From NCBI GenBank assembly GCA_023657425.1, contig JAGTJW010000002.1:50431-114430 (forward strand): a stretch of 64,000 nt of DNA, given 5' to 3'. The notes under the pieces were generated by a model. The model did no database searches. It saw only the letters and a program-made list of their open reading frames with translations, and was not told the DNA's origin. The position numbers were made by a program, and so were the translations under genes. Positions 24,314-45,612 of this stretch are shown one piece after another; within the stretch, counting starts at the first letter, position 1; every line of letters begins with the position of its first letter. The DNA is from Ideonella sp. WA131b. GTDB taxonomy: Bacteria > Pseudomonadota > Gammaproteobacteria > Burkholderiales > Burkholderiaceae_C.

Positions 24314-24372
24314 GGGGCGGTGCGGGCGACACCGATTGTCAGTCAACCCGGCCCACCCTGCCGCCGGGTTGC

Positions 24373-26898
24373 TCAAGGCTTGGCGGGCCTTGCTTCCGGG
24401 GAGTCGTCGGGAGGCGGCGCGAACAGCGGCCTGCCACGGCGCTCGCGCCAGTCACCCAGCAGCAGGAGCATCGGCGCAGCGACGAACACCGATGTGCAGG
24501 CCGCGATGACGATCCCGACCGCCATCGGGATGGCAAAGCTCGCAACCGCCGAGCCGCCCCAGACGGCCAGCGGCAGGATGGCCAGGAACGCCGTCACCGA
24601 GGTGTACAGGCTGCGCGTGAGCGTCTGGTTGATGGACTTGTCGATCACCTCGCGCAGGCTGCGGTTGCGCCGGCTCTGCAGGTTCTCGCGCATGCGGTCG
24701 TACACCACGACCTTGTCGTTCACCGAGTAGCCCACCAGCGTGAGCAGCGCCGCGATGGCGGTGAGGCTGAAGTCGAGCCGGGTCCACGCGAACACGCCGA
24801 GCGTGAGCACCACGTCCAGCAACAGCGTGGCGATGGCGCCCACGGCGAACGGCCACTCGAAGCGCACCCAGATGTAGACGAGCATCGCCAGCGTCGCCAG
24901 CACCATGGCCATCAGGCCGGCCCGCGTGAGCTCGCCGCTGACCTTGGGGCCAACCACCTCGCTGCGTTCGAAGTTCGCCTCGGGGTCGATGGCGCGCATC
25001 GCGGCCTTCAGCTTCTCGACAGCCTGGGTCTGCGCCACTTCGCCGCCGGCTTGCCGCTCCACGCGCACAAGCAGGCGGTCGCCTTCGCCCATGGTTTGCA
25101 GCGCGACTTCGCCGAGGCCGAGCTGGTCGAGCCCGGCGCGGAAGCGGGACAGGTCGTCGGGCTGCGTGACCGCCACCTCCATCTGGATGCCGCCGCGGAA
25201 GTCGATGCCGAAGTTCAGCCCCGGCTTGGCCAGGGACGTCACAGAGGCCAGCGCCAGCACCGCCGACACCAGCATCGTCGCCACGCCCAGCCGCATGAAG
25301 CCCACGTTCGTGCCGTCGGGCACGGGCCTGAAACCGAAAAGCGGCCGGATCTCCAGCGTCTTGAGCTTGCGCCGCCGGGCGATCGACAGCATCGCCACCT
25401 TCACCACCGAGACCGCGGTGAACATCGAGATCAGGATGCCCAGCGCCATGGTGATGGCGAATCCCCTCACCGGCCCGGAACCGAACGAGAACAGCAGCAC
25501 CGTGGCGATCAGGGCCGTGACGTTGCTGTCCATCACGGTGGCGTAGGCGCGGCGGAATCCCGAATCGATGGCCGTCAGCGCCGCCTTGCCCTTGAGAGTC
25601 TCCTCGCGGATCCGTTCATTGATGAGCACGTTGGCGTCCACCGCCAGCCCGATGCCGAGCACGATGCCCGCGATGCCGGGCAGCGTGAGCGTGGCTCCGA
25701 GCATGCTCATGCCGGCGATGGTGAGCACCACGTTGATGGCCAGGGCGGCGTTGGCCAGCAAGCCCCAGCCGCCATAGAGCACCACCATGAAGGCGAACAC
25801 GAACACGAAGGCGCCGATGCCCGCGAGGATGCCCTTGCGGATGACGTCGCTGCCCAGGTCGGCGCCCACGTTGCGTTCCTCGATCACCGTCAGTTTGGCC
25901 GGCAGCGCGCCGGCCCGCAGCAACGCAGCCAGGGTGCCGGCCTCCTGTACGGTGAAGCCGCCGGAGATCTGTCCCGCGCCGCCGGTGATGGGCTCGCGGA
26001 TGACCGGCGCGCTGAGCACCTTGTCGTCGAGCACGATCGCGAACGGACGGCCGACGTTGGCCTCGGTGATCGCGGCGAAGGCGCGCGCGCCTGCGCGGTC
26101 GAAGCGGAAGTTGACGATCGGTTCGCGGGTCTGCGTATCGAATCCCGCGCTGGCGTCGACCAGCCGGTCGCCCGAGAGCACAACGCGTCGGTTGATGGGG
26201 TAGGACTGGCCCTCGGCGTCCTGCATCGGGCGCACGCCCTCGGGGCTGGCTGCTTCTCCGAGCAGGTGGAAGCTCATCTTCGCGGTCGAACCCAGCAGCG
26301 CGCGCAGCTGCGCAGGGTCCTGCAGGCCGGGCAACTGCACCAGGATGCGGTTGGGCCCGACCCGCTGGATGGTGGGCTCGGACACGCCAACCTGGTCGAC
26401 GCGCTTGCGGATGACCTCCAGGCTCTGTTCCACCGCACGGTCGATGGCGATCTTCCGGCCCTCTTCGGTGAAGGTGAGCCCGAGGCCGCTTGAGCCCTGG
26501 GGGCGTACGTCGAGGTCGGGGCGACCCGATGGGCCGGGCCTGACGAGGCTGTCCAGCTGGTCTTGCGCGCGCGTCAGGTCGGACGGGTCGCGCAGTTCGA
26601 CGCTCAGGCCTTGCTGGTGGATGTTCAGGGCACGGATCGGCAGCGAGGCCTCGCGCAGGACACGACGCGTGTCGTCGGCCAGCGATCGCGCGCGGTCGTC
26701 GAGCAAGGCTGCGCCATCGACCTCGAGCACCAGGTGCGAGCCACCGCGCAGATCGAGTCCCAGGGCTAAGGGGCGGTCGGGCAGGAAGGCCGGCCAGCGT
26801 TCCAGCACGGAAGAAGGCAGCACGTTCGGCAGGGCGAACAGCAAGCCGCAGAGGATGATGGCCAGGTAACTGGCCACCCGGTAAGGGGAGTTCTTCAT
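24373..26898 (-). CDS. secDF: fused protein translocase subunit SecDF (841 aa)
   Basis: LGLDLRGG, RVDQVGVSEP, DANVLINERIREE (SecD half); GIDFRGG, GYSVNDKVVVYDRMRE, QTLTRS (SecF half), all in one ORF. Confidence 0.95.
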   Translation of the reverse strand: MKNSPYRVASYLAIILCGLLFALPNVLPSSVLERWPAFLPDRPLALGLDLRGGSHLVLEVDGAALLDDRARSLADDTRRVLREASLPIRALNIHQQGLSVELRDPSDLTRAQDQLDSLVRPGPSGRPDLDVRPQGSSGLGLTFTEEGRKIAIDRAVEQSLEVIRKRVDQVGVSEPTIQRVGPNRILVQLPGLQDPAQLRALLGSTAKMSFHLLGEAASPEGVRPMQDAEGQSYPINRRVVLSGDRLVDASAGFDTQTREPIVNFRFDRAGARAFAAITEANVGRPFAIVLDDKVLSAPVIREPITGGAGQISGGFTVQEAGTLAALLRAGALPAKLTVIEERNVGADLGSDVIRKGILAGIGAFVFVFAFMVVLYGGWGLLANAALAINVVLTIAGMSMLGATLTLPGIAGIVLGIGLAVDANVLINERIREETLKGKAALTAIDSGFRRAYATVMDSNVTALIATVLLFSFGSGPVRGFAITMALGILISMFTAVSVVKVAMLSIARRRKLKTLEIRPLFGFRPVPDGTNVGFMRLGVATMLVSAVLALASVTSLAKPGLNFGIDFRGGIQMEVAVTQPDDLSRFRAGLDQLGLGEVALQTMGEGDRLLVRVERQAGGEVAQTQAVEKLKAAMRAIDPEANFERSEVVGPKVSGELTRAGLMAMVLATLAMLVYIWVRFEWPFAVGAIATLLLDVVLTLGVFAWTRLDFSLTAIAALLTLVGYSVNDKVVVYDRMRENLQSRRNRSLREVIDKSINQTLTRSLYTSVTAFLAILPLAVWGGSAVASFAIPMAVGIVIAACTSVFVAAPMLLLLGDWRERRGRPLFAPPPDDSPEARPAKP

Positions 26899-26987
26899 GG
26901 ACGAAACCGGAAGGGCGAGCACCGGGCGCTGCCTGGTACTCGCCAACTGACGTTGAGAGCGGGTGGCGCGCCAGTGGCACGCCGACG

Positions 26988-27380
26988 TCAGGCCTCGGAG
27001 GGAGGGCCCCGGCAACCCGACGAACGCGGGCAGGCCCGGTAGATCCCGGGATCAGGAGCGGGCGCCGTGCCGGCGTCATCGCTGGCCGGCGGAGGTCTCG
27101 TGTCGCTGGGTGGCGGTGCTGCGCTGGGTGTATCGGTCCCGCCGGGGGCGGGCTGCCAGGCCTGGGCTAGCCAGTCCGTCTGCGACACCGCCAGGTCGCG
27201 GCGCAAACCCCGCAGCGTTGCCACACAGCCCGTGGGCCGCTGCAGCGCGAGCTGGCCAGCTTCGAGGGCTCCGACGAGTGCACCATCGGCGGGCGCCGGT
27301 GACGCCGTCGCCGGCCTGCTGGCAAGCGCCAATCCCAGGCCCAGAACGACCGTGATCCAAAGCGCACGAAACCAGCTCAT
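26988..27380 (-). CDS. putative secretion-monitor ribosome-arrest peptide (ApdP/SecM-like uORF), 130 aa
   Basis: GGAG SD 10 nt before ATG; signal peptide MSWFRALWITVVLGLGLALASRPATA; Pro-rich linker; C-terminal ...SGCRGPPSEA*; stop 90 nt upstream of secDF. Confidence 0.72.
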   Translation of the reverse strand: MSWFRALWITVVLGLGLALASRPATASPAPADGALVGALEAGQLALQRPTGCVATLRGLRRDLAVSQTDWLAQAWQPAPGGTDTPSAAPPPSDTRPPPASDDAGTAPAPDPGIYRACPRSSGCRGPPSEA

Positions 27381-27522
27381 GCCGCGGATTCTCCAGCAGG
27401 CCAGGGCCCGACCATCCTGCGCCTGGACGAAGAGTCCCCGAGCCTGCCGCATTTCGGCCAGGCAAGCCTGTCATCAGACGGACCCGCACTCCCGCTTTCA
27501 GGGACCGGCATCCGGAAGCTGA

Positions 27523-27554
27523 GTGCTGCCCGGACCAGTCGTCTCGGGCAGCAC
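27523..27554. other. 10-bp hairpin between terC and the uORF
   Basis: GTGCTGCCCG-N12-CGGGCAGCAC; no U tract. Confidence 0.4.
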
Positions 27555-27570
27555 CTCCATCTCCATAAGG

Positions 27571-28623
27571 TCAAGGGACCGGGGCATCCACGGCACCACG
27601 GCGGGTCTTCCACAGCGAGAACAGCACACCGCCCGCCAGCAGGCCCGCCGTCACCGACAGGCTCAGCGCGGCCGGCACCTTGCCGTCGAACAGCCAGTCA
27701 CCCAGGAAGATCTTGGCGCCGATGAAGATGAGCACGATGGACAACGCGTACTTCAGGTAGTGGAAGCGGTGCACCACGGCGGCCAGCGCGAAGTACAGCG
27801 CGCGCAGGCCCAGGATGGCGAAGATGTTGCTCGTGTAGACGATGAAGGCGTCGGGTGTGATGGCGAAGATGGCCGGCACGGAGTCGATCGCGAACACCAG
27901 GTCGGCGATCTCCACCAGCACGAGGCACAGGAAGAGGGGTGTGGCCCAAAGCACGACCTTGCCGGTCTTGGGGTCGGGCTGGCGGACCCAGAAGCGCTGG
28001 CCATGCAGCTGCTCGGTCACGCGCAGGCGCTTGCGCAGGAACTTCAGCACCGGGTTGTTCTCGATGTCCGGCTTGCTGTCCATCATCACGATCATCTTGA
28101 TGCCGGTGGCAATCAGGATGACGGCGAAGATGTACATGACCCACGAGAACTCCGCCACCAGCGCGGCGCCCAGGCCGATCATGATGGCGCGCAGCACGAT
28201 CACGCCCAGGATGCCCCAGAACAGCACGCGGTGCTGGTACTCGCGCGGCACTGCGAAGTACGTGAAGATCATCGAGATGATGAACACGTTGTCCAGGGCC
28301 AGTGTCTTCTCCACCAGATAGCCGGTGATGTACAGCTGCACGGCCGTCCAGGCGCGTTCGCCGGCCGAGGCGGCCTCGGCGATCTGTGGGTCGATCGAGC
28401 TGGTGCCGGAGTAGGTGTGGTAGATCCAGTACACGGCGCCGGCCCAGGCCAGGCCCAGGCCGATGTACAGCGCCGACATGTTCAGGCTCTCGCGCACGCC
28501 GATCTCGTGCACCTCGCGGTTCATGATGCCGAGGTCGAAGGCCAGGATGGCCAGGACAACGGCGATGAACGCCAGCCATATCCAGGCCGGCATGCCCAGC
28601 CAGAGGGTGAAGAGAAATTCCAT
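27571..28623 (-). CDS. TerC/Alx family metal homeostasis membrane protein
   Basis: FDLGI, GYLVEKTLALDNVF, QHRVLFWGILG, DLVFAIDSVPA, YTSNIFAILGLRALYF. Confidence 0.93.
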   Translation of the reverse strand: MEFLFTLWLGMPAWIWLAFIAVVLAILAFDLGIMNREVHEIGVRESLNMSALYIGLGLAWAGAVYWIYHTYSGTSSIDPQIAEAASAGERAWTAVQLYITGYLVEKTLALDNVFIISMIFTYFAVPREYQHRVLFWGILGVIVLRAIMIGLGAALVAEFSWVMYIFAVILIATGIKMIVMMDSKPDIENNPVLKFLRKRLRVTEQLHGQRFWVRQPDPKTGKVVLWATPLFLCLVLVEIADLVFAIDSVPAIFAITPDAFIVYTSNIFAILGLRALYFALAAVVHRFHYLKYALSIVLIFIGAKIFLGDWLFDGKVPAALSLSVTAGLLAGGVLFSLWKTRRGAVDAPVP

Positions 28624-28718
28624 GGGGAAGCGGCCTTTCAGGGCCGCGCGAGGGCGGCGAAGCGCGAATCATCGGCAGTGCGACGCTGCGGTCCAAGCAG
28701 GGCTTGTGTGACACTGAC

Positions 28719-28733
28719 TTCGGTTTTTCCGAA
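28719..28733. promoter_or_regulatory. palindromic LysR (NhaR-type) binding site
   Basis: TTCGG-TTTTT-CCGAA inverted repeat containing T-N11-A, between divergent terC and LysR. Confidence 0.6.
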
Positions 28734-28755
28734 CCCAGCAGCTGGAGGGGTCTTG

Positions 28756-29640
28756 GTGGATCAGATCAGTTACCGCCATCTGCACTACTTTTGGGTGGTG
28801 GCCAAGGAAGGCGGGTTCGCGCGCGCGGCGGCGCGGCTGGACATGGCGGTGCAGACCGTCAGCGCGCAGGTGCGCGAGCTCGAGCGTGCGCTGGGCCACC
28901 AGCTGCTCAAGCCCACGGGGCGCTGCGTCGTGCTCACCGAAGCGGGCGAGGCCGCGTTCGCCCGCGCCGAGGACATCTTCCGCATCGGCCAGGCGCTGCC
29001 CGCGGCCGTGCGCGACGCCGCCAGCCTGCGCACGGTGCGGCTGGCCGTGGGGTTGTCGGACGGCATCTCGAAGCTCGCCGCGCACGCCTTGCTCGGGCCG
29101 GTGCTGTCCACGCCCCACCTGCGGCTGCTGTGCCACGACGGAGAGTTCGAGCACCTGCAGGCCGAGCTGGCGATGCACCACCTGGACCTGGTGCTCGCCG
29201 GTCAGCCCGCGCCACCCAACCCGACGCTGCGCTTGTCGAGCGAGCGGCTGGCCTCGGCCCCGGTGGACTGGTACGGCCCCGCCTCGCTGCTGCGGCGCGT
29301 CGACGCCCGGCACTTTCCGGACTGCCTGGCCGAGCTGCCGGTGCTGCTGCCCACCGCCCACGCGGCCTTGCGCGGCGCGATCGAGCGCTGGTTCGACCAG
29401 CACGGCCTGCAGCCGCGTGTGACCGGCGAGTTCGAAGACAGCGCGCTCATGGCGGTGTTCGCGGCGCAAGGACTGGGCGTGTTTCCGGTCAGCCGCCTGG
29501 GGATGCAAGACCTGCGTTTGCTGCGCGACCTGCGGCTGCTCGGCCGCAGCGACGAGGTGCGCGAAGACATTTACGCCATCCGGTCCCGACGCGGCTTGCA
29601 CCACCCGTTGGTGCGCCGGGTCGTCGAGGCTGCGGGCTGA
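28756..29640 (+). CDS. LysR family regulator, NhaR-like
   Basis: GTG start after GGAGGG; YRHLHYFWVVAKEG, QTVSAQVRELE, LAVGLSDGISK, GEFEDSALM. Confidence 0.88.
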   Translation: MDQISYRHLHYFWVVAKEGGFARAAARLDMAVQTVSAQVRELERALGHQLLKPTGRCVVLTEAGEAAFARAEDIFRIGQALPAAVRDAASLRTVRLAVGLSDGISKLAAHALLGPVLSTPHLRLLCHDGEFEHLQAELAMHHLDLVLAGQPAPPNPTLRLSSERLASAPVDWYGPASLLRRVDARHFPDCLAELPVLLPTAHAALRGAIERWFDQHGLQPRVTGEFEDSALMAVFAAQGLGVFPVSRLGMQDLRLLRDLRLLGRSDEVREDIYAIRSRRGLHHPLVRRVVEAAG

Positions 29641-29944
29641 GAGCGCGAACGTCTTTCGCGCCGGCCCGCTCGTCCTTGCACAGGCCCGCCGCAGCCCGAG
29701 CCCATTGTGGGCTTGACGCCCGGATCGGGGGTCTTTGGACGCGTCGCCCGGGCACGCCCGAACAAACTCGCGCGCTCTTGGGATGCGGGTGCTGGCAGAG
29801 CCCATGCACCCACCGACGTTGCATGATCCGGCGTCCGGCGCCACCGGCGGAGACCAGCGGTCGCCCTGCAGCAGAACCACACGGGATGGCCCGCCGGGCC
29901 TCCCGGCCATCGGCCCTCGGGCCGTCATTTCCACAGCCCCAGCG

Positions 29945-32900
29945 ATGACCGAATCGACAGCCTCCGACACCGCCCGCGGCACCACCGAGCCCTTGCCCGT
30001 GCCGCCGCCACAGCCGCTGCGCAACCCCCTGCGCACGCGCGCCGACTGGGAGCGCCAGCGCCAGGCCTGCCTGGCCGACCCCGGTGCCTTCCACGGGGCC
30101 ATCGCCGCACGCGAGATCCACTGGTGGGTGCCCGCCGGGGCCGACCCCGCCATCGGCGCGGGCGGCGCCTGGCTCACGTTCGACGAGGCCGGCGGCACCT
30201 GGCGCGGCTGGTGCGCCGCCAGCGCCGGGCCGGTGGCCACCGCGCTGGGTGAGGGCTTCATGCCCTGGGCGCGCGCCTTCGACGACACACAGCCGCCGCA
30301 CTGGCGCTGGTTCAGCGGCGGCTGCACCAACGCCGGCTTCAACGAGGTCGACCGCCACGTGCTGGCCGGCCACGGCGACGAAGACGCCGTCATCTACGAA
30401 GGGGACCGCTGGGACATGGCTGCCGACGGCGGCCGCGGCGCGCCGCTGGAAAGCGAACGCATCAGCCGCCGCCGCCTGCTGCTGGAGACGGCCAAGTGCG
30501 CCGTGGCGCTGCGTGCCTTGGGCCTGAAGCCCGGCGACCGCATCGCGCTGAACCTGCCCAACATCCCGCAGCAGCTCTACTGGACCGAGGCCGCCAAGCG
30601 GCTGGGCATCGTCTACACGCCGGTGTTCGGCGGCTTCTCCGACAAGACCCTGTCCGACCGCATCCACGACGCCGGTGCCCAGGTGGTGATCACCGCCGAC
30701 GGCGGCTACCGCATGGCGCAGGTGGTGCCCTACAAGACCGCCTACACCGACCCCGCGCTCGACAACTTCGTGCCGCTGGCCACCGCCCGCGCCGTGGTGG
30801 CGGCGCGGCTGCCGACGCTGACCCTGAGCCCGGCGCAGTCGCAGCGCCTGCTGGCTGTGCTGGACGAAGCCCTGGCCGGCGAGGTGACGCTGCTGCGCGG
30901 CGACGTGATGCGCGGCGTGGGCCGCGCGCTGGCCGAGCTGGGCCGCGCCGGCCTGGCCGCCGAGGCCGCAGGGCAGGTGCGCGTGGCGCTGGCCGAGGCC
31001 CTGGTGCACACACCGCCGCGCGTGCAGACGGTGGTGGTGGTGCGCCACACGGCGCAGCCCGATCTGGTGTGGCGCCCCGAGCGCGACCGCTGGGCCCACG
31101 AGCTGACCGACGCCGCGCTCGCCCCGCTGCTGCAGGCCGCGGGCGTGGCCAACGAGGCCGCCATGCTGGCCTTGCCCGCGGCCGAGCTGGTGCGCGCGGT
31201 GTGGGCCGTGGTGCCGCCGCTGAAGCTGGATGCCGAGGTGCCGCTCTTCTTCATCTACACCAGCGGCTCCACCGGCAAGCCCAAGGGCGTGGTGCACGTG
31301 CACGGCGGCTACACCGCGGGCGTGGCGCACACCATGAAGGTGGCCTTCGACGCCCGCCCCGGCGAGGTGATGTACGTCGTGGCCGACCCCGGCTGGATCA
31401 CCGGCCAGAGCTACATGATCAGCGCCGCGCTCACCACGCGCGTGACCAGCGTCATGACCGAGGGCGCGCCGGTGTTCCCGCACGCCGGGCGCTTCGCATC
31501 GATCATCGAGCGCTACCGCGTGGCCATCTTCAAGGCCGGCGTCACCTTCCTGAAGACGGTGATGACCGACCCGCAGAACGCCCAGGACGTGCAGCGCCAC
31601 GACATGCGCTCGCTGCGCGTGGCCACCTTCTGCGCCGAGCCCACGAGCCCGGCGGTGCAGCAGTTCGGCATGGGGCTGATGACGCCCTGGTACATCAACA
31701 GCTACTGGGCCACCGAGCACGGCGGCATCGCCTGGACGCACTTCTACGGCAACGGCGACTTCCCCCTGCGCGCCGACGCCCACACCTACCCGCTGCCGTG
31801 GATCGTGGGCGACGTGCGGATTGAAGACGCCACGGCGCCGGCACCCGCGGCGCTGCCGTTCGCCCCGTTCGCCCGTGCGGCAGGCGAGGGCGGCGCCCCC
31901 TGGCGCGAGGCCGCCGCAGGCGAGAAGGGCGAGATCGTCATCGCCGCCCCGTACCCCTACCTGGCGCGCACGGTGTGGGGCGATGCGGAAGGCTTCCGCC
32001 TCGAGCCCGCGGGCGCCCATGGCGTGGGCCTGCGCGTGGTGCCCGCCTGGCGCGGCGACGGCGAGCGCTGGCGCAAGACCTACTGGACGCGCTGGCAGGG
32101 CGCCTGGGCCTACACGCAGGGCGACTTCGCGGTGCGCCACGCCGACGGCGGCTATTCGCTGCACGGCCGCAGCGACGACGTCATCAACGTCAGCGGCCAC
32201 CGCATCGGCACCGAAGAGATCGAAGGCGCCATCCTGCGCGACAAGACGCTGGACCCGGATTCGCCCGTGGGCAACGTCATCGTGGTGGGCGCGCCGCACC
32301 GCGAGAAGGGGCTCACGCCGCTGGCCTTCGTCAAGCCCGCCGCCGGCCGCCGCCTGAGCCAGGACGACCGCCGCCGCCTGGCCGACCTCGTGCGCCAGGA
32401 AAAGGGCGCCGTCGCCGTGCCCGGCGACTTCATCGAGGTGACGCAGTTCCCCGAAACACGCAGCGGCAAATACATGCGCCGCATGGTGCGCGCGCTGGTG
32501 GAAGACTTGCCCGTGGGCGACGCGACGACGCTGAAGAACCCGGAGTCCATCGAGGAGCTGGCGCGCGCCATCGGCGCCTGGAAGCGCGCGCAGCAGCTGG
32601 CCGACGAGCAGCAGCTCTTCGAGCGCCACCGCTACTTCCGCATCCAGGTCAACGCGATCGCGCCGGGGCGCCGCGTGGCGACCGTGTTCGTCACCAACCC
32701 GCCGGTGAACGCACTCAACGAGCGCGCGCTCGACGAGCTCAACCTCGTGGTCGACCACCTGGCGCGGCGCGACGACATGGCCGGCGTGGTGTTCACCGGC
32801 GACGGCGGCAGCTTCATCGCCGGGGCCGACATCCGGCAGCTGCTGGAAGAGGTGCGCCACATCGAGCAGGCGCGTGTGCTGCCCCACAACGCGCAGCTCG

Positions 32901-35521
32901 CCTTCAGCCGCATCGAGGCCATGGCCGCGGCCGGCAAGCCCTGCATCGCCGCCATCAATGGCGTGGCCCTGGGCGGTGGCCTGGAGTTCGCGCTGGCCTG
33001 CCACTGGCGCATCGCCGAGCCGGTGGCGCGTTTCGGGCAGCCCGAGATCCGCCTGCGCCTGCTGCCCGGCTACGGCGGCACGCAGCGCCTGCCGCGGCTG
33101 CTGCACGCCCGCCGCGGCGCCGCGGGGCTGGTGGATGCGCTGGAGCTGGTGCTGGGCGGGCGTTCGGTGGATGCCGCCACGGCGGCGCAGATGGGCCTGG
33201 TGGACGAGCTGGCGCAGGGCGCCGACGACGCGCTTTCGCTGGCACACCAGCGGCTGCGCGAGTTTGTGCGGCACGGCGAAGACTCACCGCTCGGCCGCGC
33301 CCTGGCCGCGCGCCGCGCGATGACAGCGCAGTGGGCGCAGCCGCTGCCCGGCCTGCCGGCGGTGCTGGATGCCGCGCTGGCCGACCCCCACCTGCGCAGG
33401 GTGCAGGCGCAGCTGGCCTGGGCCGGCCGCGGCACGGCGCGCGACCGTGCGCTCGACGCGCTGGCCACCGGCCTGCGCGAGGGCCTGGCCGCCGGCCTGG
33501 CGCGCGAGGCCGAACTGTTTGCGCAGGCCATCGTCGACCCCGAGGGGGGCAAGACCGGCATCGCCGAGTTCATGGACAAGCGCAGCCCGCCGCTGCCCAT
33601 GCGCCGCGGCGGCGTGCGCCGGCCGGCGCGCGAGCCGGGTCTGGTGGATGAGCTCGTGGCCCAGGGCCAGCTGCTGCCGCTGGGGGCGCCTTTCTTCCCG
33701 GGCGTGACGCCGCTGCCGGCCTGGCAGCTTGGCTTTGGCGTCGAACGCGATCCCGACACCGGCGCGCCGCGTTTCGGCCCGCCGCTGGCCAGCGAGGTCG
33801 AGCTGCTGTTCCCGGTGCCGCGGCCCGGCCCCAACGAGGCCGTGGTCTACGTGCTGGCGTCTGAAGTGAACTTCAACGACATCTGGGCACTCACCGGCAT
33901 CCCCGTCTCGGCCTTCGACGGCCACGAGGAAGACATCCAGATCACCGGCAGCGGCGGCGTGGCCTTGGTGGCCGCACTCGGCAGCGAGGCCCGCCGCGAA
34001 GGCCGGCTGAAGGTGGGCGACCTCGTTTCCATCTACTCGGGCCAGACCGAGCTGCTCTCGCCGCAGGCCGGGCGCGACCCCATGTTCGCGGCTTTTCGCA
34101 TCCAGGGCTACGAGAGCGAGACCGGCAGCCACGCGCAGTTCTTGCTCGTGCAGGCGCCGCAGCTGCACCCGGTGCCGGCCGACCTGACGCTGGAGCAGGC
34201 CGGCGCCTACACGCTGAACCTGGGCACCGTGAACCGCGCGCTGTTCACCACGCTGCAGGTGCGGCCGGGGCAGACGCTGTTCGTCGAAGGCGCGGCCACC
34301 GGCACGGGCCTGGATGCGCTGAAGACCGCCGTGCGCGCCGGGCTGAGCGTGACGGGCGGCGTGTCGAGCGCGGAGCGCGCCGCGGCCGTCGTGCGCGAAG
34401 GCGCGGTCGGCGCGCTCGACCGCCGTTCACCAGGCTTTGCAGCGCTGTACACGCCAGTGCCCGAAGGCGAAGAGGCCACCCGTGCCTGGGAGGCTGCCGG
34501 CGAGCCGCTGCTGGCGGCCTACCGCGCACTCAATGGCGGGCGCCTGGCCGACTGCGTGGTGTCGCATGCCGGTGAGACGGCGTTTGCGCGCAGCTTCCAG
34601 CTGCTGGCCAAGGGCGGCGCGCTGGCCTTCTACGGCGCCAGCTCGGGCTATCACTTCAGCTTCGTGGGCAAGGCCGGCCACGCCACGCCCGAGGCCATGC
34701 TGGCCCAGGCGCAGGCCCAGGCGGGCGAGTCGGTGCTGCTGTACTACGGCATCGACGGCCCGGCCCTGCTGGACGCCACCGGCCTGGCCATGCTCGAGGC
34801 CCTGCGCGCGATGGGCGCGCGCACGGTGGTGGCCTGCGCCAGCGACGCGCAGCGCGAGTTCGTGCAGTCGCTGGGCTTCGAAGACGCGCTGGCCGGCGTC
34901 GTCTCGCTCGAAGAAGTGCAGCGCCGCGCCGGCCTCGCCTTCCACTGGCCCCGCAGCATGCCGCGCCTGCCCGACGCCCGGGGCGACACCGAGGCCTTCA
35001 AGCAGGCCGTGCGCGACTTCCAGGAGAAGACGCTCAAACCTTTCGGCAACGCCGTGGGCGCCGCGCTGCGCAGCCCCGACAACCCGCGCGGCGCGCCCGA
35101 TCTCGTCATCGAGCGCGCCGGGCACGATGCGCTGGGCGTGTCGACGGCGCTGGTGAAGCCCTACACCGGCCGCGTCGTCTACTTCGAGAGCCTGGCGCAC
35201 CGCCGCTACAGCTTCTACGCGCCGCAGGTGTGGACGCGGCAGCGCCGCATCCTCATGCCGACGGCCCACATCCTGGGCACGCACCTGTGCAACGCCTTTG
35301 AAGTGACGCGCATGAACGACCGCATCGCCGCCGGGCTGCTGGCGGTGACCGAACCGACCGTGGTGCCCTGGGCGCAGCTGCCGCAGGCCCACCAGGCCAT
35401 GTGGGACAACGCCCACGCCGGTGCCACCTACCTCGTCAACCACGCGCTGCCGGCCCTGGGCCTGCGCGGGCGCGATGCGCTGCTGGAGCGCTGGGCGGCG
35501 GGCGAGCGGGCAACTCCTTGA
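29945..35521 (+). CDS. pcs: trifunctional propionyl-CoA synthase (acyl-CoA synthetase + enoyl-CoA hydratase + acrylyl-CoA reductase), ~1858 aa
   Basis: YTSGSTGKPKG, YWATEHGG, PETRSGKYMRR (ACS); NPPVNALN, GGGLEFALAC, PGYGGTQRLPR (ECH); SEVNFNDIW, GSHAQF, YTLNLGT (MDR reductase). Confidence 0.88.
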   Translation: MTESTASDTARGTTEPLPVPPPQPLRNPLRTRADWERQRQACLADPGAFHGAIAAREIHWWVPAGADPAIGAGGAWLTFDEAGGTWRGWCAASAGPVATALGEGFMPWARAFDDTQPPHWRWFSGGCTNAGFNEVDRHVLAGHGDEDAVIYEGDRWDMAADGGRGAPLESERISRRRLLLETAKCAVALRALGLKPGDRIALNLPNIPQQLYWTEAAKRLGIVYTPVFGGFSDKTLSDRIHDAGAQVVITADGGYRMAQVVPYKTAYTDPALDNFVPLATARAVVAARLPTLTLSPAQSQRLLAVLDEALAGEVTLLRGDVMRGVGRALAELGRAGLAAEAAGQVRVALAEALVHTPPRVQTVVVVRHTAQPDLVWRPERDRWAHELTDAALAPLLQAAGVANEAAMLALPAAELVRAVWAVVPPLKLDAEVPLFFIYTSGSTGKPKGVVHVHGGYTAGVAHTMKVAFDARPGEVMYVVADPGWITGQSYMISAALTTRVTSVMTEGAPVFPHAGRFASIIERYRVAIFKAGVTFLKTVMTDPQNAQDVQRHDMRSLRVATFCAEPTSPAVQQFGMGLMTPWYINSYWATEHGGIAWTHFYGNGDFPLRADAHTYPLPWIVGDVRIEDATAPAPAALPFAPFARAAGEGGAPWREAAAGEKGEIVIAAPYPYLARTVWGDAEGFRLEPAGAHGVGLRVVPAWRGDGERWRKTYWTRWQGAWAYTQGDFAVRHADGGYSLHGRSDDVINVSGHRIGTEEIEGAILRDKTLDPDSPVGNVIVVGAPHREKGLTPLAFVKPAAGRRLSQDDRRRLADLVRQEKGAVAVPGDFIEVTQFPETRSGKYMRRMVRALVEDLPVGDATTLKNPESIEELARAIGAWKRAQQLADEQQLFERHRYFRIQVNAIAPGRRVATVFVTNPPVNALNERALDELNLVVDHLARRDDMAGVVFTGDGGSFIAGADIRQLLEEVRHIEQARVLPHNAQLAFSRIEAMAAAGKPCIAAINGVALGGGLEFALACHWRIAEPVARFGQPEIRLRLLPGYGGTQRLPRLLHARRGAAGLVDALELVLGGRSVDAATAAQMGLVDELAQGADDALSLAHQRLREFVRHGEDSPLGRALAARRAMTAQWAQPLPGLPAVLDAALADPHLRRVQAQLAWAGRGTARDRALDALATGLREGLAAGLAREAELFAQAIVDPEGGKTGIAEFMDKRSPPLPMRRGGVRRPAREPGLVDELVAQGQLLPLGAPFFPGVTPLPAWQLGFGVERDPDTGAPRFGPPLASEVELLFPVPRPGPNEAVVYVLASEVNFNDIWALTGIPVSAFDGHEEDIQITGSGGVALVAALGSEARREGRLKVGDLVSIYSGQTELLSPQAGRDPMFAAFRIQGYESETGSHAQFLLVQAPQLHPVPADLTLEQAGAYTLNLGTVNRALFTTLQVRPGQTLFVEGAATGTGLDALKTAVRAGLSVTGGVSSAERAAAVVREGAVGALDRRSPGFAALYTPVPEGEEATRAWEAAGEPLLAAYRALNGGRLADCVVSHAGETAFARSFQLLAKGGALAFYGASSGYHFSFVGKAGHATPEAMLAQAQAQAGESVLLYYGIDGPALLDATGLAMLEALRAMGARTVVACASDAQREFVQSLGFEDALAGVVSLEEVQRRAGLAFHWPRSMPRLPDARGDTEAFKQAVRDFQEKTLKPFGNAVGAALRSPDNPRGAPDLVIERAGHDALGVSTALVKPYTGRVVYFESLAHRRYSFYAPQVWTRQRRILMPTAHILGTHLCNAFEVTRMNDRIAAGLLAVTEPTVVPWAQLPQAHQAMWDNAHAGATYLVNHALPALGLRGRDALLERWAAGERATP

Positions 35522-35599
35522 GCAAACCGAGACCCTCGGCCCGCGCTCGAGAAGGCGTTTCCGTCGCCAAGAGGCCGAACGCGACAATCTCTGGCGTCC

Positions 35600-36478
35600 T
35601 CAATCCAGCGCCAGCGCCATCCTTGGCCACAGCGCCCTTTCGGCTGCTCGGCGAAACGCCCCGACGTGGCCGATGTCCCGCATGCCGACATCGCCGGGCG
35701 AGAGCACTTGCACGACCGCTGGGGCATGGGGCATGGCCGCCAGCAGCTTGCGCGTGCACGCCTCGGTCATCGTGTCGTCGTCGGTGAAGCTGAAGGCCTG
35801 GATCGGGAAGCGGGCCGACCGCAGGCTGTCCCGCACCAGCTCGGGCTGCGCACCCCATGCGAAATCGGGGTGACGGCACCAGCGCATCCACTGGCGGGCT
35901 GCGGGTCCCGGCAGATCGCTGACCATCCGTAGACGCCGCCCCGGAAAGTACCCCAGCAGCGGCGTGAGCAGCGGCCCGGCCAGGTGCAGCATCAGCGGCG
36001 CCAAGCGCCGACTGGGTGCGGCCCAATCGCGCCAGTAGCCCGATCCCGCGGCCACCGAAACCGCCACGCGCAGGCGAGCCTGCGCAGCCGCCTCCGTCAT
36101 CGCGGCGTGGTGCATGCCCAGGCTGTGGCCGATCAGCGCGATCGGCCGGCCACCGGCGCGGTCTGACAGGGCGTGTACGGCAGCAGAGAAGTCCTGCCGG
36201 GCCCAGGTCAGCATGTCGGCGTCCAGCCCACGCAGCGAGCGCATCCCGGGTGGGCGAGACAAGCCCATGCCTCGCAAATCAAAAGTCATCACGCGGTACC
36301 CCCGGGCGGCCAGCCAAGTGGCGAAGGGCGCGTAGAAGCGCTGGGGGATTCCCAGGCCGCCAGCCACCAGCACCGCGTCGTAGCTCAGACCCGCAGGCTC
36401 GAACATGCGGGCTTGAAGCGCCGTGCCGTCGCGGGCTGTCAAGATCCAGGGCGTTCCCGCCGCCTCGTTCTGGTTCAC
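35600..36478 (-). CDS. alpha/beta hydrolase
   Basis: GGLGIPQRFY, FDLRGMG, GHSLG, FTDDD, IGHVGAFR; GTG start overlaps the sigma-factor stop. Confidence 0.85.
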   Translation of the reverse strand: MNQNEAAGTPWILTARDGTALQARMFEPAGLSYDAVLVAGGLGIPQRFYAPFATWLAARGYRVMTFDLRGMGLSRPPGMRSLRGLDADMLTWARQDFSAAVHALSDRAGGRPIALIGHSLGMHHAAMTEAAAQARLRVAVSVAAGSGYWRDWAAPSRRLAPLMLHLAGPLLTPLLGYFPGRRLRMVSDLPGPAARQWMRWCRHPDFAWGAQPELVRDSLRSARFPIQAFSFTDDDTMTEACTRKLLAAMPHAPAVVQVLSPGDVGMRDIGHVGAFRRAAERALWPRMALALD

Positions 36479-37347
36479 TGCGGTAACCCGCGCTGAAGAA
36501 AGCCTTCCTGTGTCAGCACTGCGCGGATCGCCGCCAGCATCGCCGTGGGCGCTGCGGCCGCCTGACGGGCTCGAAAGAGCGCAGCTGCATCGCCAACCCG
36601 CACGAATGCGTCGAATGCTCGCTCGGCCTGTGCCCGCTCCTGCCGAGTCGATGCCTCTGCGCTCCCGTTGCGTGGCCCCGGGGGCCGCAAATGCCGCAAC
36701 GCCGGCAGCTGCCGTTCGCACCGGCAGGCCGCCTTTTCGCTCACCAGCCCGCACTGGCCGCGCGTGAAGTCGGCCAGCCGCGCACGGCTACGGGACAGCC
36801 TCTTTCGGTAGGCAGCGGGCGTGACCCCCACCACTTCGGCGGCCACGGTTGACGGCAGATCGAACACCGTGTCGAGCACGTAGACCAGCCGGTCTTCGCG
36901 GTCCAGCGCCATCAGCATGTTCTGCGTGCAGGACAGCGCCAGCTCGCGCGCCTCGAGCTTGTCCTGGGGCGTCAGCGCAAAGGGCCCGCCTTGGGCGTGG
37001 GTCAATCGCTCGGACAAGGCGAGCCCGGCCCCCAGTTTCTCGGCAAGGGCGTCCAGCGACAGCACCGGCGCCTCGGCAGCCGAGGTACGCGCCGTGATCA
37101 GGTGGTTGTGCGCCACGCGCCACACCCAGGTGGTGAAGGCTGCCTCGCCCCGAAAACCGCCCAGGTTCGTGACGATCTTGAGCAGGATCTCCTGCGTGGC
37201 GTCGGCGGCGTCGTCGCGGTGCCCCAGCACACGCAACGCCAGGTTGAACACCCCGGGCTGCAGCGAAGTCAGCAGCCGGTCGAGCGCGGCCAGATCGCCC
37301 TGCTGAGCGGCTGCCAGGGTCTCGGGCGACGGTGCGGTGATCTTCAT
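36475..37347 (-). CDS. ECF-type RNA polymerase sigma factor with Cys-containing C-terminal extension
   Basis: DAADATQEILLK, FTTWVWRVAHN (region 2); YRKRLSRSR (region 4); CTQNML and CGLVSEKAACRC. Confidence 0.88.
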   Translation of the reverse strand: MKITAPSPETLAAAQQGDLAALDRLLTSLQPGVFNLALRVLGHRDDAADATQEILLKIVTNLGGFRGEAAFTTWVWRVAHNHLITARTSAAEAPVLSLDALAEKLGAGLALSERLTHAQGGPFALTPQDKLEARELALSCTQNMLMALDREDRLVYVLDTVFDLPSTVAAEVVGVTPAAYRKRLSRSRARLADFTRGQCGLVSEKAACRCERQLPALRHLRPPGPRNGSAEASTRQERAQAERAFDAFVRVGDAAALFRARQAAAAPTAMLAAIRAVLTQEGFLQRGLPQ

Positions 37348-37356
37348 GGCAGTGAC

Positions 37357-38136
37357 TCAGAGCCCGGGCACGGCAGGCTGGTTGGCGGCGAGTTTGCTTG
37401 GGGTGAGGATGGCCGTGTCGAACCACTCCAGGGTCGCGTCGGTGCCGTAGGTCGCTCGGACGCGCTCCTTCCAGGCAGCATTGAACCATTGCTCGGCTGC
37501 GGCCTGGTCCTTCCAGAGGTAGATGCCGCCAAACCGGCCGTCTTCGGTGATGATGAAATACTTTCGCAACAGGCCCGGCACGGCACGGTAGGTGGGGATG
37601 GCGGCCTGGAATTCCTGCACCAGCCGGGCCTTGCCGATGCCGGCGGGTGTCGGGATGGTGACCAGGGTCGAGACGCTGGCGCCGTCCATTTGCGCCGGTG
37701 TTCCGCCGGGCGTGTTGTCGATGGCCACCGGCACTTCGTAGAACCGCACCTGGCCTTTGGCGCCGCGTTCCTTCTCGACGCGTTCGAACCACGCGGGGTT
37801 GAACCAGGCGCGCGCGCTGGCCAGGTCCTTCCAAAGGTACAGCCCGCCGTAGTGACCGTCGGCCTGGGCGATGGCGTAGGCCTTGAACGACAGCCCGGGG
37901 ATGGAGTCGTAAGTCGGGGCGGTCTCGCGCATCCGGCGCCACACCAGCATCTTGGGCGCGTACCACGGGGTGGGCACCTTCACGATTGCAGCCACGGCCG
38001 AGGTGGTTGCATAGCCTTCGCCGCCCTGGGCCTGGGCCGACGCAGCGGGTACGAGCAGCGCGGCGCCGGTGCTCAGGGATGCCAGCAGGCGCAGTGGACC
38101 TCGGCGGCGGGTGAGCTCGCGTGGGCTTGTCGACAT
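37357..38136 (-). CDS. exported protein with tandem YdhR-like (ferredoxin-fold, monooxygenase-like) domains
   Basis: Two repeats, PGLSFKAY...YGGLYLWKD and PGLLRKYF...FGGIYLWKD; N-terminal Arg-rich signal ending ASAQA. Confidence 0.75.
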   Translation of the reverse strand: MSTSPRELTRRRGPLRLLASLSTGAALLVPAASAQAQGGEGYATTSAVAAIVKVPTPWYAPKMLVWRRMRETAPTYDSIPGLSFKAYAIAQADGHYGGLYLWKDLASARAWFNPAWFERVEKERGAKGQVRFYEVPVAIDNTPGGTPAQMDGASVSTLVTIPTPAGIGKARLVQEFQAAIPTYRAVPGLLRKYFIITEDGRFGGIYLWKDQAAAEQWFNAAWKERVRATYGTDATLEWFDTAILTPSKLAANQPAVPGL

Positions 38137-38187
38137 GGCGTGTCCTCGGGTGGTCACGCGGGCAGGATCGTCCGCGTTGATTCCTTG

Positions 38188-38214
38188 GACAGGAAATCCG
38201 ACACCGCTGTGACC
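38188..38214 (-). promoter_or_regulatory. putative ECF sigma-dependent (autoregulatory) promoter
   Basis: Minus-strand GGTCACA-N16-TGTC about 50 nt upstream of the first gene of the ECF operon. Confidence 0.5.
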
Positions 38215-38751
38215 GGCGCGGCCACGACCCGCAGATCCTGGCGTCAGCGTCGAGGGGATCTCACAGGACCACAGCATCAACACCGATCAGCAGTTGGGGC
38301 AACGGCCTCGTGTTGCGGATCATGAAGCCCATGGCCAAGACAGCAGGGGTGGTCGGAGGCTCTCCCGGTTCGGGAAACGGTCAAGCCAGGCCGCTGAAGT
38401 CCTCGCCGCGAAAGAAGTGGCCACCGATGAAGCCCGTGCCAAGCCCATAGGCGATGCCCCCATCGACGCCTTCCGGCCAGCCACTGACTTTGGCTCTGCC
38501 AGGGGCCAGAGCCACCGCCCGCGTTCCCAGGAATCTCGCCTGGCCAGAACTGTCGGCGCGGACTTGACTGAGGATCGCTCGGCCGAAGCCGACCGCGGCA
38601 CGAGCCCGCCGGGCCAGGCAACAGAGCTGGAGAGCCACGGCGCGCCGGGTGGCTCCGCACAGAGCACGGTGCGAGAACTCTCCAGGCAACCACAGCCGCC
38701 CATCAAGAGTGGCATCGTCGATCGCTTATCGAGAGTCGCCATCGCTCTGGC

Positions 38752-38779
38752 TCAAGTTTCTGAGGCTCTGCGACGAAAA
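38752..38779 (+). promoter_or_regulatory. putative sigma28 (FliA) promoter
   Basis: TCAAGTTT-N12-GACGAAAA versus consensus TAAAGTTT-N11-GCCGATAA; 40 nt upstream of an MCP. Confidence 0.4.
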
Positions 38780-38819
38780 CACATGGAATCTCAACCCTTG
38801 GATCTCGGACGCAAGCCCC

Positions 38820-40589: not shown

Positions 40590-40638
40590 GCTCGGCCCGC
40601 CTGATCACAACCGATCCCGGCACCCCAAGGAGTCCGAA

Positions 40639-44511: not shown

Positions 44512-45612
<1,101 letters not shown>

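What the first reader, a model, noticed from the sequence alone, without database searches (positions are those of the whole stretch)
29945..35521. Stand-alone trifunctional propionyl-CoA synthase of the 3-hydroxypropionate bi-cycle type in a betaproteobacterium
Seen: one ~1858-aa ORF with acyl-CoA ligase, crotonase and MDR reductase domains in the Pcs order; no malonyl-CoA reductase or other bi-cycle genes in the window. Known: Pcs converts 3-hydroxypropionate to propionyl-CoA via a sequestered acrylyl-CoA in Chloroflexus, and homologues occur patchily in aerobic photoheterotrophs. Inference: it is used here to assimilate or detoxify 3-HP/acrylate (e.g. from DMSP, beta-alanine or polyamine breakdown) or as a redox sink, rather than for autotrophy. 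The polyamine cluster in this window is a possible 3-HP source.
Basis: partly seen in the sequence, partly recalled or inferred. Interest (0 to 1): 0.62.

Follow-up and report, generated by a model that had tools for sequence, protein, structure and literature searches.

The report
Propionyl-CoA synthase gene without its partner
This is an intact gene for the known three-in-one enzyme propionyl-CoA synthase in a common lake-water Rubrivivax-like bacterium; the enzyme and its presence in this bacterial order are already known, and the only unusual point is that the malonyl-CoA reductase gene that nearly always follows it has been lost here.

Summary
Window 29945-35521 (+) is one 1858-aa ORF with acyl-CoA ligase, crotonase and MDR-reductase domains in that order. 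It aligns end to end with the solved Erythrobacter NAP1 propionyl-CoA synthase (PDB 6EQO, 2670 bits, about 65% identity) and keeps the family motifs.

It is not a rarity. At least 584 species-representative genomes encode a relative. Burkholderiales and Gemmatimonadota MAGs carrying pcs were already published (PMC9802188).

The context is the unusual part. In 73 of 77 informative relatives, mcr (malonyl-CoA reductase) starts within 260 bp downstream of pcs. In the window and its two nearest relatives (Rubrivivax sp. MAGs) mcr is gone. A fourth clade member (92-93% identical Pcs) still has it. Two unrelated lineages carry decayed mcr beside an intact pcs.

pcs stays under purifying selection (dN/dS about 0.16 in all three domains). 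In eight lake metagenomes, contigs of this organism stop matching the mcr-bearing relative exactly at the pcs stop codon. No depth-matched mcr appears in any of them.

Most likely this is a working Pcs uncoupled from Mcr that salvages 3-hydroxypropionate or acrylate into propionyl-CoA. The proposed polyamine link is not supported. Overall this is a new member of a known kind, of modest interest.

The parts
29945..35521 (+). pcs: trifunctional propionyl-CoA synthase gene, 1858 aa plus stop
29945..32554 (+). 3-hydroxypropionate-CoA ligase (AMP-forming, Acs-like) domain, aa 1-870. Contains P-loop TSGSTGKPKG (aa 439-448, nt 31259-31288), WATEHGG (588), GRSDDVI (741) and the A10 lysine K842 in SGKYMRR (nt 32468-32470).
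   Evidence: these residues are invariant in all 81 aligned Pcs
32555..33544 (+). 3-hydroxypropionyl-CoA dehydratase (crotonase) domain, aa about 871-1200. Both crotonase glutamates are present: E1014 in GGGLE (nt 32984-32986) and E1034 in GQPE (nt 33044-33046, equivalent to NAP1 E1027).
33545..35518 (+). Acrylyl-CoA reductase (MDR/Ecr-like, NADPH) domain, aa about 1201-1858. Contains D1312 in NFND (equivalent to NAP1 D1302, nt 33878-33880) and the dinucleotide-binding GAATGTG motif (aa 1449-1455, nt 34289-34309).
24316..29938 (.). Lineage-specific segment upstream of pcs: SecDF(-) 24373-27015, arrest-peptide uORF region, TerC(-) 27571-28623 and NhaR-like LysR(+) 28753-29640. The three nearest relatives have only 0.14-0.34 kb here between UPF0114/DUF2062 and pcs. 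The LysR gene is divergent from terC and is probably the terC regulator, not the pcs regulator.
35526..42601 (.). Segment occupying the position where relatives carry mcr: alpha/beta hydrolase(-) 35600-36478, ECF sigma(-) 36475-37347, YdhR/DUF4865-like(-), MCP(+), CheW(+) and a hypothetical gene. Homology to L042 and L002 resumes at 42602 (dus). No mcr remnant is detectable.
20739..23183 (+). Pat/YfiQ-type protein acetyltransferase (NDP-forming CoA-ligase-like domain plus GNAT domain). It is the conserved upstream neighbour of pcs in the clade (L042, L003). This is context only; a regulatory link to the Pcs ligase lysine is speculation.

Best explanation
The gene encodes a functional orthologue of the Erythrobacter/Chloroflexus propionyl-CoA synthase. 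Three steps are inferred by homology. The ligase domain activates 3-hydroxypropionate with ATP and CoA. The crotonase domain dehydrates 3-hydroxypropionyl-CoA to acrylyl-CoA. The Ecr-like domain reduces acrylyl-CoA with NADPH to propionyl-CoA. In the homologous structure 6EQO the reactive acrylyl-CoA stays inside an enclosed reaction chamber. In this freshwater Rubrivivax-like lineage (Burkholderiales, Sphaerotilaceae) the ancestral pcs-mcr operon has lost mcr. Pcs can therefore no longer be fed from malonyl-CoA. It most likely serves to assimilate or detoxify 3-hydroxypropionate or acrylate that is taken up or made by other routes, feeding propionyl-CoA into the methylmalonyl-CoA pathway. It is not part of an autotrophic bi-cycle. 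Shown here: orthology, motif conservation, loss of mcr at the locus, and purifying selection. Inferred: substrate, physiological role, and absence of mcr from the rest of the genome.
For: Orthology. Full-length collinear match to PDB 6eqo_A (E=0, 2670 bits) and about 65% identity to the NAP1 locus L075. The domain order is correct. The window agrees with the family at 752 of 773 near-invariant columns, and nearly all of the 21 deviations are shared with the mcr-bearing relative L003. The P-loop, A10 lysine, both crotonase glutamates, the NFND aspartate and the Rossmann motif are present and invariant across 81 sequences.

Operon rule. NAP1 Mcr (confirmed against PDB 8hjw/6k8s) and L003 Mcr find mcr starting 10-260 bp after pcs in 73 of 77 informative loci. 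There is no hit in the window, L002 or L042. Only decayed remnants occur in L004 and L023.

Derived loss. The window groups with L042 (support 98) and with L002 and L003 (support 100). This clade is nested among mcr-bearing Sphaerotilaceae and Gemmatimonadota. L003 retains mcr.

Synteny. Homology to relatives breaks exactly at the pcs borders.

Selection. dN/dS is 0.155-0.178 over the whole gene in every pair, and 0.12-0.20 for the individual domains compared between the window and each of L042, L002 and L003.

Genome-wide proxy. In 8 lake runs, window-type contigs (depth about 4 to 79x) match L003 up to pcs position 8839-8852 and then diverge. Mcr-like pieces are short or belong to contigs whose depth does not co-vary with this organism; they are absent in X1, X5 and X37. 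The nearest Mcr protein clusters have 18, 7 and 2 members, against 71 for the Pcs cluster.

Assembly. Independent contigs span both junctions.

Expression. An aquatic metatranscriptome holds contigs 100% identical to pcs. This is weak evidence.
Against: A divergent or xenologous mcr (below about 80% nucleotide identity to L003 mcr) elsewhere in the genome is therefore not excluded. The same limit applies to mcl, mch, mct and meh. No 3-HP transporter, 3-HP-forming enzyme or methylmalonyl-CoA pathway gene lies beside pcs, so the source and fate of the substrate are inferred only. The metatranscriptome depth over pcs (2.7-5) equals that of its neighbours and could be DNA carry-over. With GC3 at 93%, dS may be underestimated. 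Five non-conservative replacements at otherwise invariant positions (D412A, W625R, R1174A, E1615A, M1793R) leave room for altered properties, although all five positions are also replaced in L003 (four with the same residue; at E1615 the window and L003 have A, while L042 and L002 have G).
Confidence: 0.65

Rival explanations
1. Pcs still works with a malonyl-CoA reductase encoded elsewhere in the genome. Together they would form the usual acetyl-CoA to malonyl-CoA to 3-HP to propionyl-CoA module, used for CO2 co-assimilation or as an NADPH/redox sink in a photoheterotroph, or as part of a full bi-cycle. On this reading only the operon linkage has been broken.
For: The pcs-mcr pair is almost universal among relatives. 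Burkholiderales-order MAGs (Burkholderiales) with complete bi-cycle gene sets and photosynthesis genes are reported (PMC9802188). A relative with 83% identical Pcs has pcs-mcr followed by DAB-type inorganic-carbon pump genes. The genome could not be searched.
Against: No L003-like mcr at 80% or more nucleotide identity appears at matching depth in 8 metagenomes where the organism reaches up to 79x. No large Mcr protein cluster matches the 71-member Pcs cluster. Two further species of the same clade also lack mcr at the locus, and two unrelated lineages show mcr pseudogenes next to an intact pcs. Uncoupling therefore recurs.
Confidence: 0.17
2. pcs is a functionless relic left after the operon was disrupted and is on its way to decay.
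For: Its operon partner is gone, and both flanks have been rearranged in three different ways in three species.
Against: The 5.6-kb frame is intact in the window, L042 and L002. dN/dS is about 0.16 in all three domains, the same as in comparisons with mcr-bearing L003. All catalytic motifs are kept. The sequence is near-identical across many lake metagenomes. Transcript-derived contigs exist.
Confidence: 0.04
3. The enzyme has shifted substrate in this clade, for example to acrylate, propionate, crotonate or other short 3-hydroxy acids, so that it is Pcs-like in mechanism but not a 3-HP enzyme.
For: There are 21 deviations from otherwise near-invariant family columns, five of them non-conservative. 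Acs-family ligases are often promiscuous (general knowledge).
Against: Nearly all the deviations, including all five non-conservative positions, are shared with L003, which keeps the canonical pcs-mcr pair. They therefore predate mcr loss and are not tied to it. None falls on the motif residues checked.
Confidence: 0.1

Closest known systems
Propionyl-CoA synthase of Erythrobacter sp. NAP1
   Same: Same length class (1858 vs 1850 aa), same three-domain order, collinear alignment over the whole protein at about 65% identity, and all motif residues conserved.
   Different: In NAP1, pcs is directly followed by mcr, with an overlapping stop and start (L075 9935-15487 and 15484-19137). Here mcr is absent and unrelated genes flank pcs. 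The host is a freshwater betaproteobacterium (Sphaerotilaceae-like), not a marine alphaproteobacterium.
Propionyl-CoA synthase of Chloroflexus aurantiacus (Alber and Fuchs 2002, J Biol Chem 277:12137; cited from the reference list seen)
   Same: Same fused ligase-dehydratase-reductase chemistry converting 3-HP to propionyl-CoA (established knowledge).
   Different: In Chloroflexus the enzyme is one step of the autotrophic 3-HP bi-cycle. Here there is no evidence for the cycle. No direct sequence comparison with the Chloroflexus protein was made here.
pcs-mcr cassettes of Burkholiderales-order (Burkholderiales), Gemmatimonadota and Sphingomonadales MAGs and isolates (Garritano et al. 2022, PMC9802188; loci L003, L005, L006, L029, L079, L007-L013)
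   Same: Same protein family and same bacterial order. The nearest mcr-bearing relative, L003, has a 92-93% identical Pcs.
   Different: Those carry mcr within 260 bp downstream. The window, L002 and L042 do not.
Unfused reductive 3-HP assimilation route of Rhodobacter sphaeroides (3-HP-CoA ligase/transferase, dehydratase, acrylyl-CoA reductase AcuI; recalled from Schneider et al. 2012 and Asao and Alber 2013, not read here)
   Same: Same proposed physiological job: 3-HP or acrylate to propionyl-CoA without Mcr and without autotrophy.
   Different: That route uses separate enzymes with no sequestering chamber. This is an analogy from memory and was not tested here.

Membership tests
Trifunctional propionyl-CoA synthase (Pcs; EC 6.2.1.36 / 4.2.1.116 / 1.3.1.84 fusion) | A single polypeptide of about 1800-1900 aa with AMP-forming acyl-CoA ligase, crotonase-fold dehydratase and MDR/Ecr-like reductase domains in that order | tested here: met
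   Pfam domain order and coordinates; 1858 aa
Trifunctional propionyl-CoA synthase (Pcs; EC 6.2.1.36 / 4.2.1.116 / 1.3.1.84 fusion) | Full-length collinear homology to a biochemically and structurally characterised Pcs | tested here: met
   6eqo_A: E=0, 2670 bits, residues 31-1855 vs 25-1844. In the family tree it sits inside the Pcs clade.
Trifunctional propionyl-CoA synthase (Pcs; EC 6.2.1.36 / 4.2.1.116 / 1.3.1.84 fusion) | Catalytic and cofactor motifs of all three domains intact | tested here: met
   P-loop 439-448, K842, E1014, E1034, D1312 and GAATGTG 1449 are all invariant in 81 sequences. 752 of 773 near-invariant columns are kept. The mapping of NAP1 K783, E1027, D1302, T1753 and H1769 uses residue numbers recalled from memory; the residue letters at those positions in the NAP1 sequence agree with the recollection.
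Trifunctional propionyl-CoA synthase (Pcs; EC 6.2.1.36 / 4.2.1.116 / 1.3.1.84 fusion) | 3-HP-, ATP-, CoA- and NADPH-dependent formation of propionyl-CoA with sequestered acrylyl-CoA | not testable with these tools
   Requires an enzyme assay
pcs-mcr two-gene module (malonyl-CoA to propionyl-CoA half of the 3-HP bi-cycle) | Bifunctional malonyl-CoA reductase gene adjacent to, or co-transcribed with, pcs | tested here: not met
   No Mcr hit in the 64-kb window. The position is occupied by unrelated genes. The junction is confirmed by independent assemblies.
pcs-mcr two-gene module (malonyl-CoA to propionyl-CoA half of the 3-HP bi-cycle) | mcr present somewhere in the same genome | tested here: inconclusive
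As a proxy, no depth-matched L003-like mcr appears in 8 metagenomes. A divergent copy is not excluded.
Autotrophic 3-hydroxypropionate bi-cycle | Presence of mcl, mch, mct, meh and smtAB (glyoxylate-assimilation half) together with mcr and pcs | tested here: inconclusive
   None was found among the annotated ORFs of the window or in about 10 kb beyond each window end as read on contigs of other samples that carry the same genes.

The most novel reading that the evidence does not exclude
A cosmopolitan freshwater Rubrivivax-like lineage has truly discarded malonyl-CoA reductase while keeping the 5.6-kb pcs gene under purifying selection, and the same uncoupling has happened independently in at least two other lineages (L004 Burkholderiaceae, L023 Novosphingobium). 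That would mean Pcs has a selectable, Mcr-independent job in lake bacterioplankton, namely scavenging or detoxifying environmental 3-hydroxypropionate or acrylate. These lineages would then be natural knock-outs for working out what the widespread pcs-mcr pair is for in aerobic photoheterotrophs.
Probability: 0.55. Interest if true: 0.4.

Novelty: new member of a known kind. Interest (0 to 1): 0.3.

Why it matters
On its own this is another orthologue of a well-characterised enzyme, in an order where it has already been reported. The modest added value is comparative. pcs and mcr are routinely used together, or pcs alone, as marker genes for the 3-HP bi-cycle in metagenome surveys. This lineage shows that pcs can persist under selection without mcr. 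A pcs hit alone is therefore not evidence for CO2 fixation or even for the malonyl-CoA to propionyl-CoA module. If the loss is genome-wide, these abundant lake bacteria point to 3-HP or acrylate as a relevant freshwater substrate.

Tried and rejected

2. Reading the primary Pcs structure paper (DOI and PMC6499725) and Zarzycki 2009 (PMC2795484). Neither is held. The NAP1 residue numbers are therefore from memory, cross-checked only against the residue letters in the NAP1 sequence.

3. The LysR gene directly upstream as a pcs regulator.

4. The polyamine cluster as a 3-HP source. Rejected as unsupported: it is a Puu/SpuC putrescine set, 16 kb away and not syntenic.

5. Search for mcr remnants in the window, L002 and L042 with tblastn at E<1. 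None found.

6. Promoter and terminator consensus scan around pcs. Nothing useful in this 70% GC sequence.

7. Extending the contig beyond both window ends. Only glycogen genes on one side and arginase, AsnC and an aminotransferase on the other. Two look-ups were wasted on wrong minus-strand coordinates.

8. Assembly chimera as the explanation for the odd flanks. Rejected.
Full report
**Observation**

The window carries one long frame on the + strand that ends at 35521. Translation from the ATG at 29945 gives 1858 residues. A TTG 210 nt further upstream would extend it. However, nucleotide homology to the three nearest relatives starts at 29902-29945 and stops at 35511-35525, and their proteins align from residue 1. 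The ATG is therefore the supported start.

Pfam places ACAS_N, AMP-binding and AMP-binding_C at residues 105-842, ECH_1 at 911-1111, and ADH_N/ADH_zinc_N at 1295-1826. NCBIfam shows the same three parts: acetate/propionate-CoA ligase, enoyl-CoA hydratase and crotonyl-CoA carboxylase/reductase. Each scores below its family cut-off, as expected for a fusion protein.

Against the PDB the best hit is 6eqo_A, the 1850-aa Erythrobacter sp. NAP1 propionyl-CoA synthase. It scores E=0 and 2670 bits in a single alignment covering 31-1855 versus 25-1844.

**Is it a real, working Pcs?**

I aligned the window protein with 80 relatives recovered from species-representative genomes. Among the 77 sequences outside its own small clade, 773 columns are at least 97% invariant. 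The window agrees at 752 of them. Of the 21 deviations, most are conservative and nearly all are shared with L003, the clade member that still has mcr.

The following motifs are present, and each is invariant in all 81 sequences (E1014 in 80 of 81):
- Acs-family P-loop TSGSTGKPKG (439-448)
- WATEHGG (588)
- GRSDDVI (741)
- A10 lysine K842 in SGKYMRR
- the two crotonase glutamates, E1014 in GGGLE and E1034 in GQPE
- NFND aspartate D1312
- the GAATGTG dinucleotide-binding motif (1449)

I recall NAP1 residues K783, E1027, D1302, T1753 and H1769 as functionally probed positions. The paper could not be read here. These residues carry the recalled letters in the NAP1 sequence and map to K788, E1034, D1312, T1764 and H1780 in the window.

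Pairwise Nei-Gojobori dN/dS between the window, L042, L002 and L003 is 0.155-0.178 over the whole gene. For the individual domains, compared between the window and each of the other three, it is 0.12-0.20. The gene is under purifying selection throughout.

**How common is it?**

The protein database returned 1196 hits at E<=1e-10. The best 120 are all full-length at 68% identity or more. Several are annotated by JGI as acrylyl-CoA reductase / 3-hydroxypropionyl-CoA dehydratase / 3-hydroxypropionyl-CoA synthetase, and named sources include Methylibium, Rubrivivax, Gemmatimonadaceae, Novosphingobium and Sandarakinorhabdus.

The nearest are two Rubrivivax sp. MAGs (L042 at 94%, L002 at 92%) and a Betaproteobacteria MAG (L003 at 92%). 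Next come Piscinibacter, Methylibium, Gemmatimonadota and many Sphingomonadales.

Garritano et al. 2022 already reported Burkholderiales and Gemmatimonadota MAGs with pcs, mcr and the rest of the bi-cycle gene set (PMC9802188). Earlier notes of this scan likewise judged pcs-mcr cassettes in Steroidobacteraceae, Gemmatimonadaceae and Sphingomonadales to be genuine but ordinary. A Pcs in a betaproteobacterium is therefore not new.

**What is unusual: the missing partner**

In the NAP1 locus (L075), pcs (9935-15487) is followed, with overlapping stop and start, by a 1217-aa ORF. That ORF matches solved malonyl-CoA reductases (8hjw, 8hi4, 6k8s).

I searched all loci with this Mcr and with the L003 Mcr. 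mcr starts 10-260 bp downstream of pcs in 73 of the 77 loci that have enough downstream sequence. Three more loci end within 200 bp of pcs and are uninformative.

The exceptions are:
- the window, L002 and L042, with no hit even at E<1
- L004 (Burkholderiaceae), where only N- and C-terminal remnants of mcr remain
- L023 (Novosphingobium), with a fragmented copy of about 1.5 kb

In the Pcs tree the window pairs with L042 (support 98). These two form a clade with L002 and L003 (support 100), nested among mcr-bearing Sphaerotilaceae and Gemmatimonadota. L003 keeps mcr. The stand-alone state is therefore derived, by loss.

One bias must be stated. The loci were chosen by their Pcs match, so genomes that kept mcr and lost pcs would not be seen.

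**Synteny**

In L042 the order is Pat-like acetyltransferase, UPF0114, DUF2062, pcs, dus, with only 0.2-0.3 kb spacers on either side of pcs. L003 has the same upstream genes, then pcs, then mcr. L002 has pcs, then a 2.9-kb insert with an ArsA-like ATPase, then dus.

In the window a 5.6-kb block (SecDF, TerC, NhaR-like LysR) separates DUF2062 from pcs. A 7.1-kb block (alpha/beta hydrolase, ECF sigma factor, YdhR-like, MCP, CheW, hypothetical) separates pcs from dus.

All breakpoints lie within a few bases of the pcs start and stop. pcs is thus a conserved island whose flanks have been remodelled three different ways.

The LysR gene immediately upstream is NhaR-like, divergent from terC, and not found beside pcs in close relatives.

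Independent Logan assemblies of four lake metagenomes span both pcs junctions at even depth: X5 has contigs of 7973 and 8698 nt, and X2, X12 and X13 have contigs across 28.2-31.3 kb and 34.3-36.9 kb. The arrangement is therefore not an assembly artefact.

**Is mcr elsewhere in the genome?**

Two proxies argue against a vertically inherited copy.

First, the pcs sequence is present at 92-94% of sampled words in at least 20 lake-water metagenomes. I laid eight of them on the L003 pcs-mcr region at 80% or more likeness. Contigs of the window type (depths of about 4, 8, 11, 28-31, 33-43, 45-51, 57-68 and 67-79) match up to L003 position 8839-8852, the end of pcs, and then run on unlike sequence.

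Over mcr there are only short conserved pieces, or patchy contigs whose depths do not track this organism. Examples are 82x versus 57-68x in X13, 29x versus 45-51x in X2, 19x and 8x versus 67-79x in X9, and none in X1, X5 and X37.

Second, the 90%-identity cluster holding the window's Pcs has 71 member sequences. The clusters nearest to L003 Mcr have 18 (97% identity), 7 (83%) and 2 (82%) members.

A divergent, horizontally acquired mcr cannot be excluded. I put that at roughly one in six.

**Surroundings and the polyamine idea**

Most ORFs that pass a GC-frame filter were annotated. A few gaps (about 48.3-49.6, 50.5-51.8 and 53.3-54.8 kb) were not scanned. The annotated genes are:
- a TPR protein, a biodegradative-type Orn/Lys/Arg decarboxylase and FabI
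- the rimP-nusA-infB-rbfA-truB operon, BipA and EamA
- a wax-ester synthase and a hydrolase
- the Pat-like acetyltransferase, UPF0114, DUF2062, SecDF, TerC and LysR
- pcs
- a hydrolase, ECF sigma, YdhR-like, MCP and CheW
- dus, MTA phosphorylase, MtnA and a class II aldolase
- a second MCP, EamA and a PuuC-like aldehyde dehydrogenase
- a PotF-type ABC transporter, a class-III aminotransferase, a PuuA-like glutamine-synthetase homologue, PuuD and a PuuB-like oxidase

None is a bi-cycle enzyme. Contigs from other samples that carry the window's end genes show what lies beyond each window end: glycogen genes on one side, and arginase, AsnC and an aminotransferase on the other.

The polyamine genes are a putrescine-utilisation set. 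By established pathway knowledge its products are GABA and succinate, not 3-HP. They lie 16 kb from pcs, and pcs flanks are not conserved even within the clade. The suggested link is therefore unsupported.

**Expression**

One aquatic metatranscriptome (X25) holds contigs 100% identical to the window at 29753-30003, 31954-32187, 34106-34493 and 34521-34790. Their depth is 2.7-5, similar to the neighbouring genes. This is compatible with low-level transcription, including the 5' leader, but DNA carry-over cannot be ruled out.

**Mechanism and verdict**

By homology, the ligase domain makes 3-hydroxypropionyl-CoA from 3-HP, ATP and CoA. The crotonase domain dehydrates it to acrylyl-CoA. The Ecr-like domain reduces acrylyl-CoA with NADPH to propionyl-CoA. 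In the NAP1 enzyme the toxic acrylyl-CoA is kept inside a closed chamber.

Without Mcr there is no route from malonyl-CoA to 3-HP. The enzyme must then act on 3-HP or acrylate from outside the cell, or from other catabolic routes such as malonate semialdehyde from beta-alanine or uracil breakdown. Those sources are inferred and not shown. The product presumably enters the methylmalonyl-CoA pathway.

I give about 0.65 to this whole reading. Within that, I put orthology above 0.95 and genome-wide absence of mcr at about 0.75.

Rivals are an mcr elsewhere in the genome (0.17), a shifted substrate (0.10) and a decaying relic (0.04).

The find is a new member of a known kind with an atypical, derived gene context. 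Its practical lesson is that pcs alone is not a safe marker for the 3-HP bi-cycle.

Noticed in passing
window 20739-23183 (+); also L042 6083-8524 and L003 2-2329: A Pat/YfiQ-type protein lysine acetyltransferase (NDP-forming CoA-ligase-like domain plus GNAT domain) is the conserved upstream neighbour of pcs in this clade. Pat enzymes are known to inactivate AMP-forming acyl-CoA synthetases by acetylating the A10 lysine, which Pcs keeps as K842. A regulatory link is possible but untested.
   Followed up: partly
contig of protein P0004 (JGI sample 3300059473; no DNA held): In a relative with 83% identical Pcs, pcs-mcr is followed directly by a Proton_antipo (DabB-like) gene and a DabA gene, that is, a DAB-type inorganic-carbon pump. 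This hints that in mcr-bearing relatives the module is tied to bicarbonate supply for the carboxylases.
   Followed up: no
L004 15549-16114; L023 15600-17089: mcr pseudogenes lie directly behind an intact pcs in a Burkholderiaceae MAG (large internal deletion) and a Novosphingobium MAG (fragmented, 7 HSPs covering 682 of 1227 residues). These are independent cases of mcr decay with pcs retained. MAG assembly error is not excluded.
   Followed up: partly
L002 7805-10726: At the position where mcr would sit, this Rubrivivax MAG carries a 2.9-kb insert with an ArsA-like anion-transporting ATPase on the opposite strand. The site downstream of pcs has been refilled with different cargo in each species.
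   Followed up: partly
window residues 412, 625, 1174, 1615, 1793 of Pcs: Five non-conservative replacements (D412A, W625R, R1174A, E1615A, M1793R) occur at positions that are at least 97% invariant in 77 other Pcs. All five positions are also replaced across the four-member clade, including mcr-bearing L003 (four with the same residue; at 1615 the window and L003 have A, while L042 and L002 have G). Their structural meaning is unknown.
   Followed up: no
window 43590-46276 (+): MTA phosphorylase, MtnA-like isomerase and a class II aldolase lie directly behind dus. It is conserved next to pcs in L042 and L002 only because mcr and the window's 7-kb block are absent there.
   Followed up: no
window 51833-63953 (-): Putrescine uptake and catabolism cluster: PuuC-like aldehyde dehydrogenase, PotF-type ABC transporter, class-III aminotransferase (NCBIfam PRK07480, above cut-off), PuuA-like, PuuD and PuuB-like oxidase. 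It continues beyond the window with a second aminotransferase, an AsnC regulator and an arginase-family gene.
   Followed up: partly
window 30000-36000 vs 36000-42000: pcs has 74% G+C, while the block that replaces mcr downstream has 65-69%. This is consistent with the flanking block having a different history from pcs.
   Followed up: no
window 29753-30003: A metatranscriptome contig (X25) 100% identical to the window starts at least 192 nt upstream of the pcs ATG, inside the 305-nt LysR-pcs spacer. It is either a long 5' leader, read-through from the LysR gene, or DNA carry-over.
   Followed up: no
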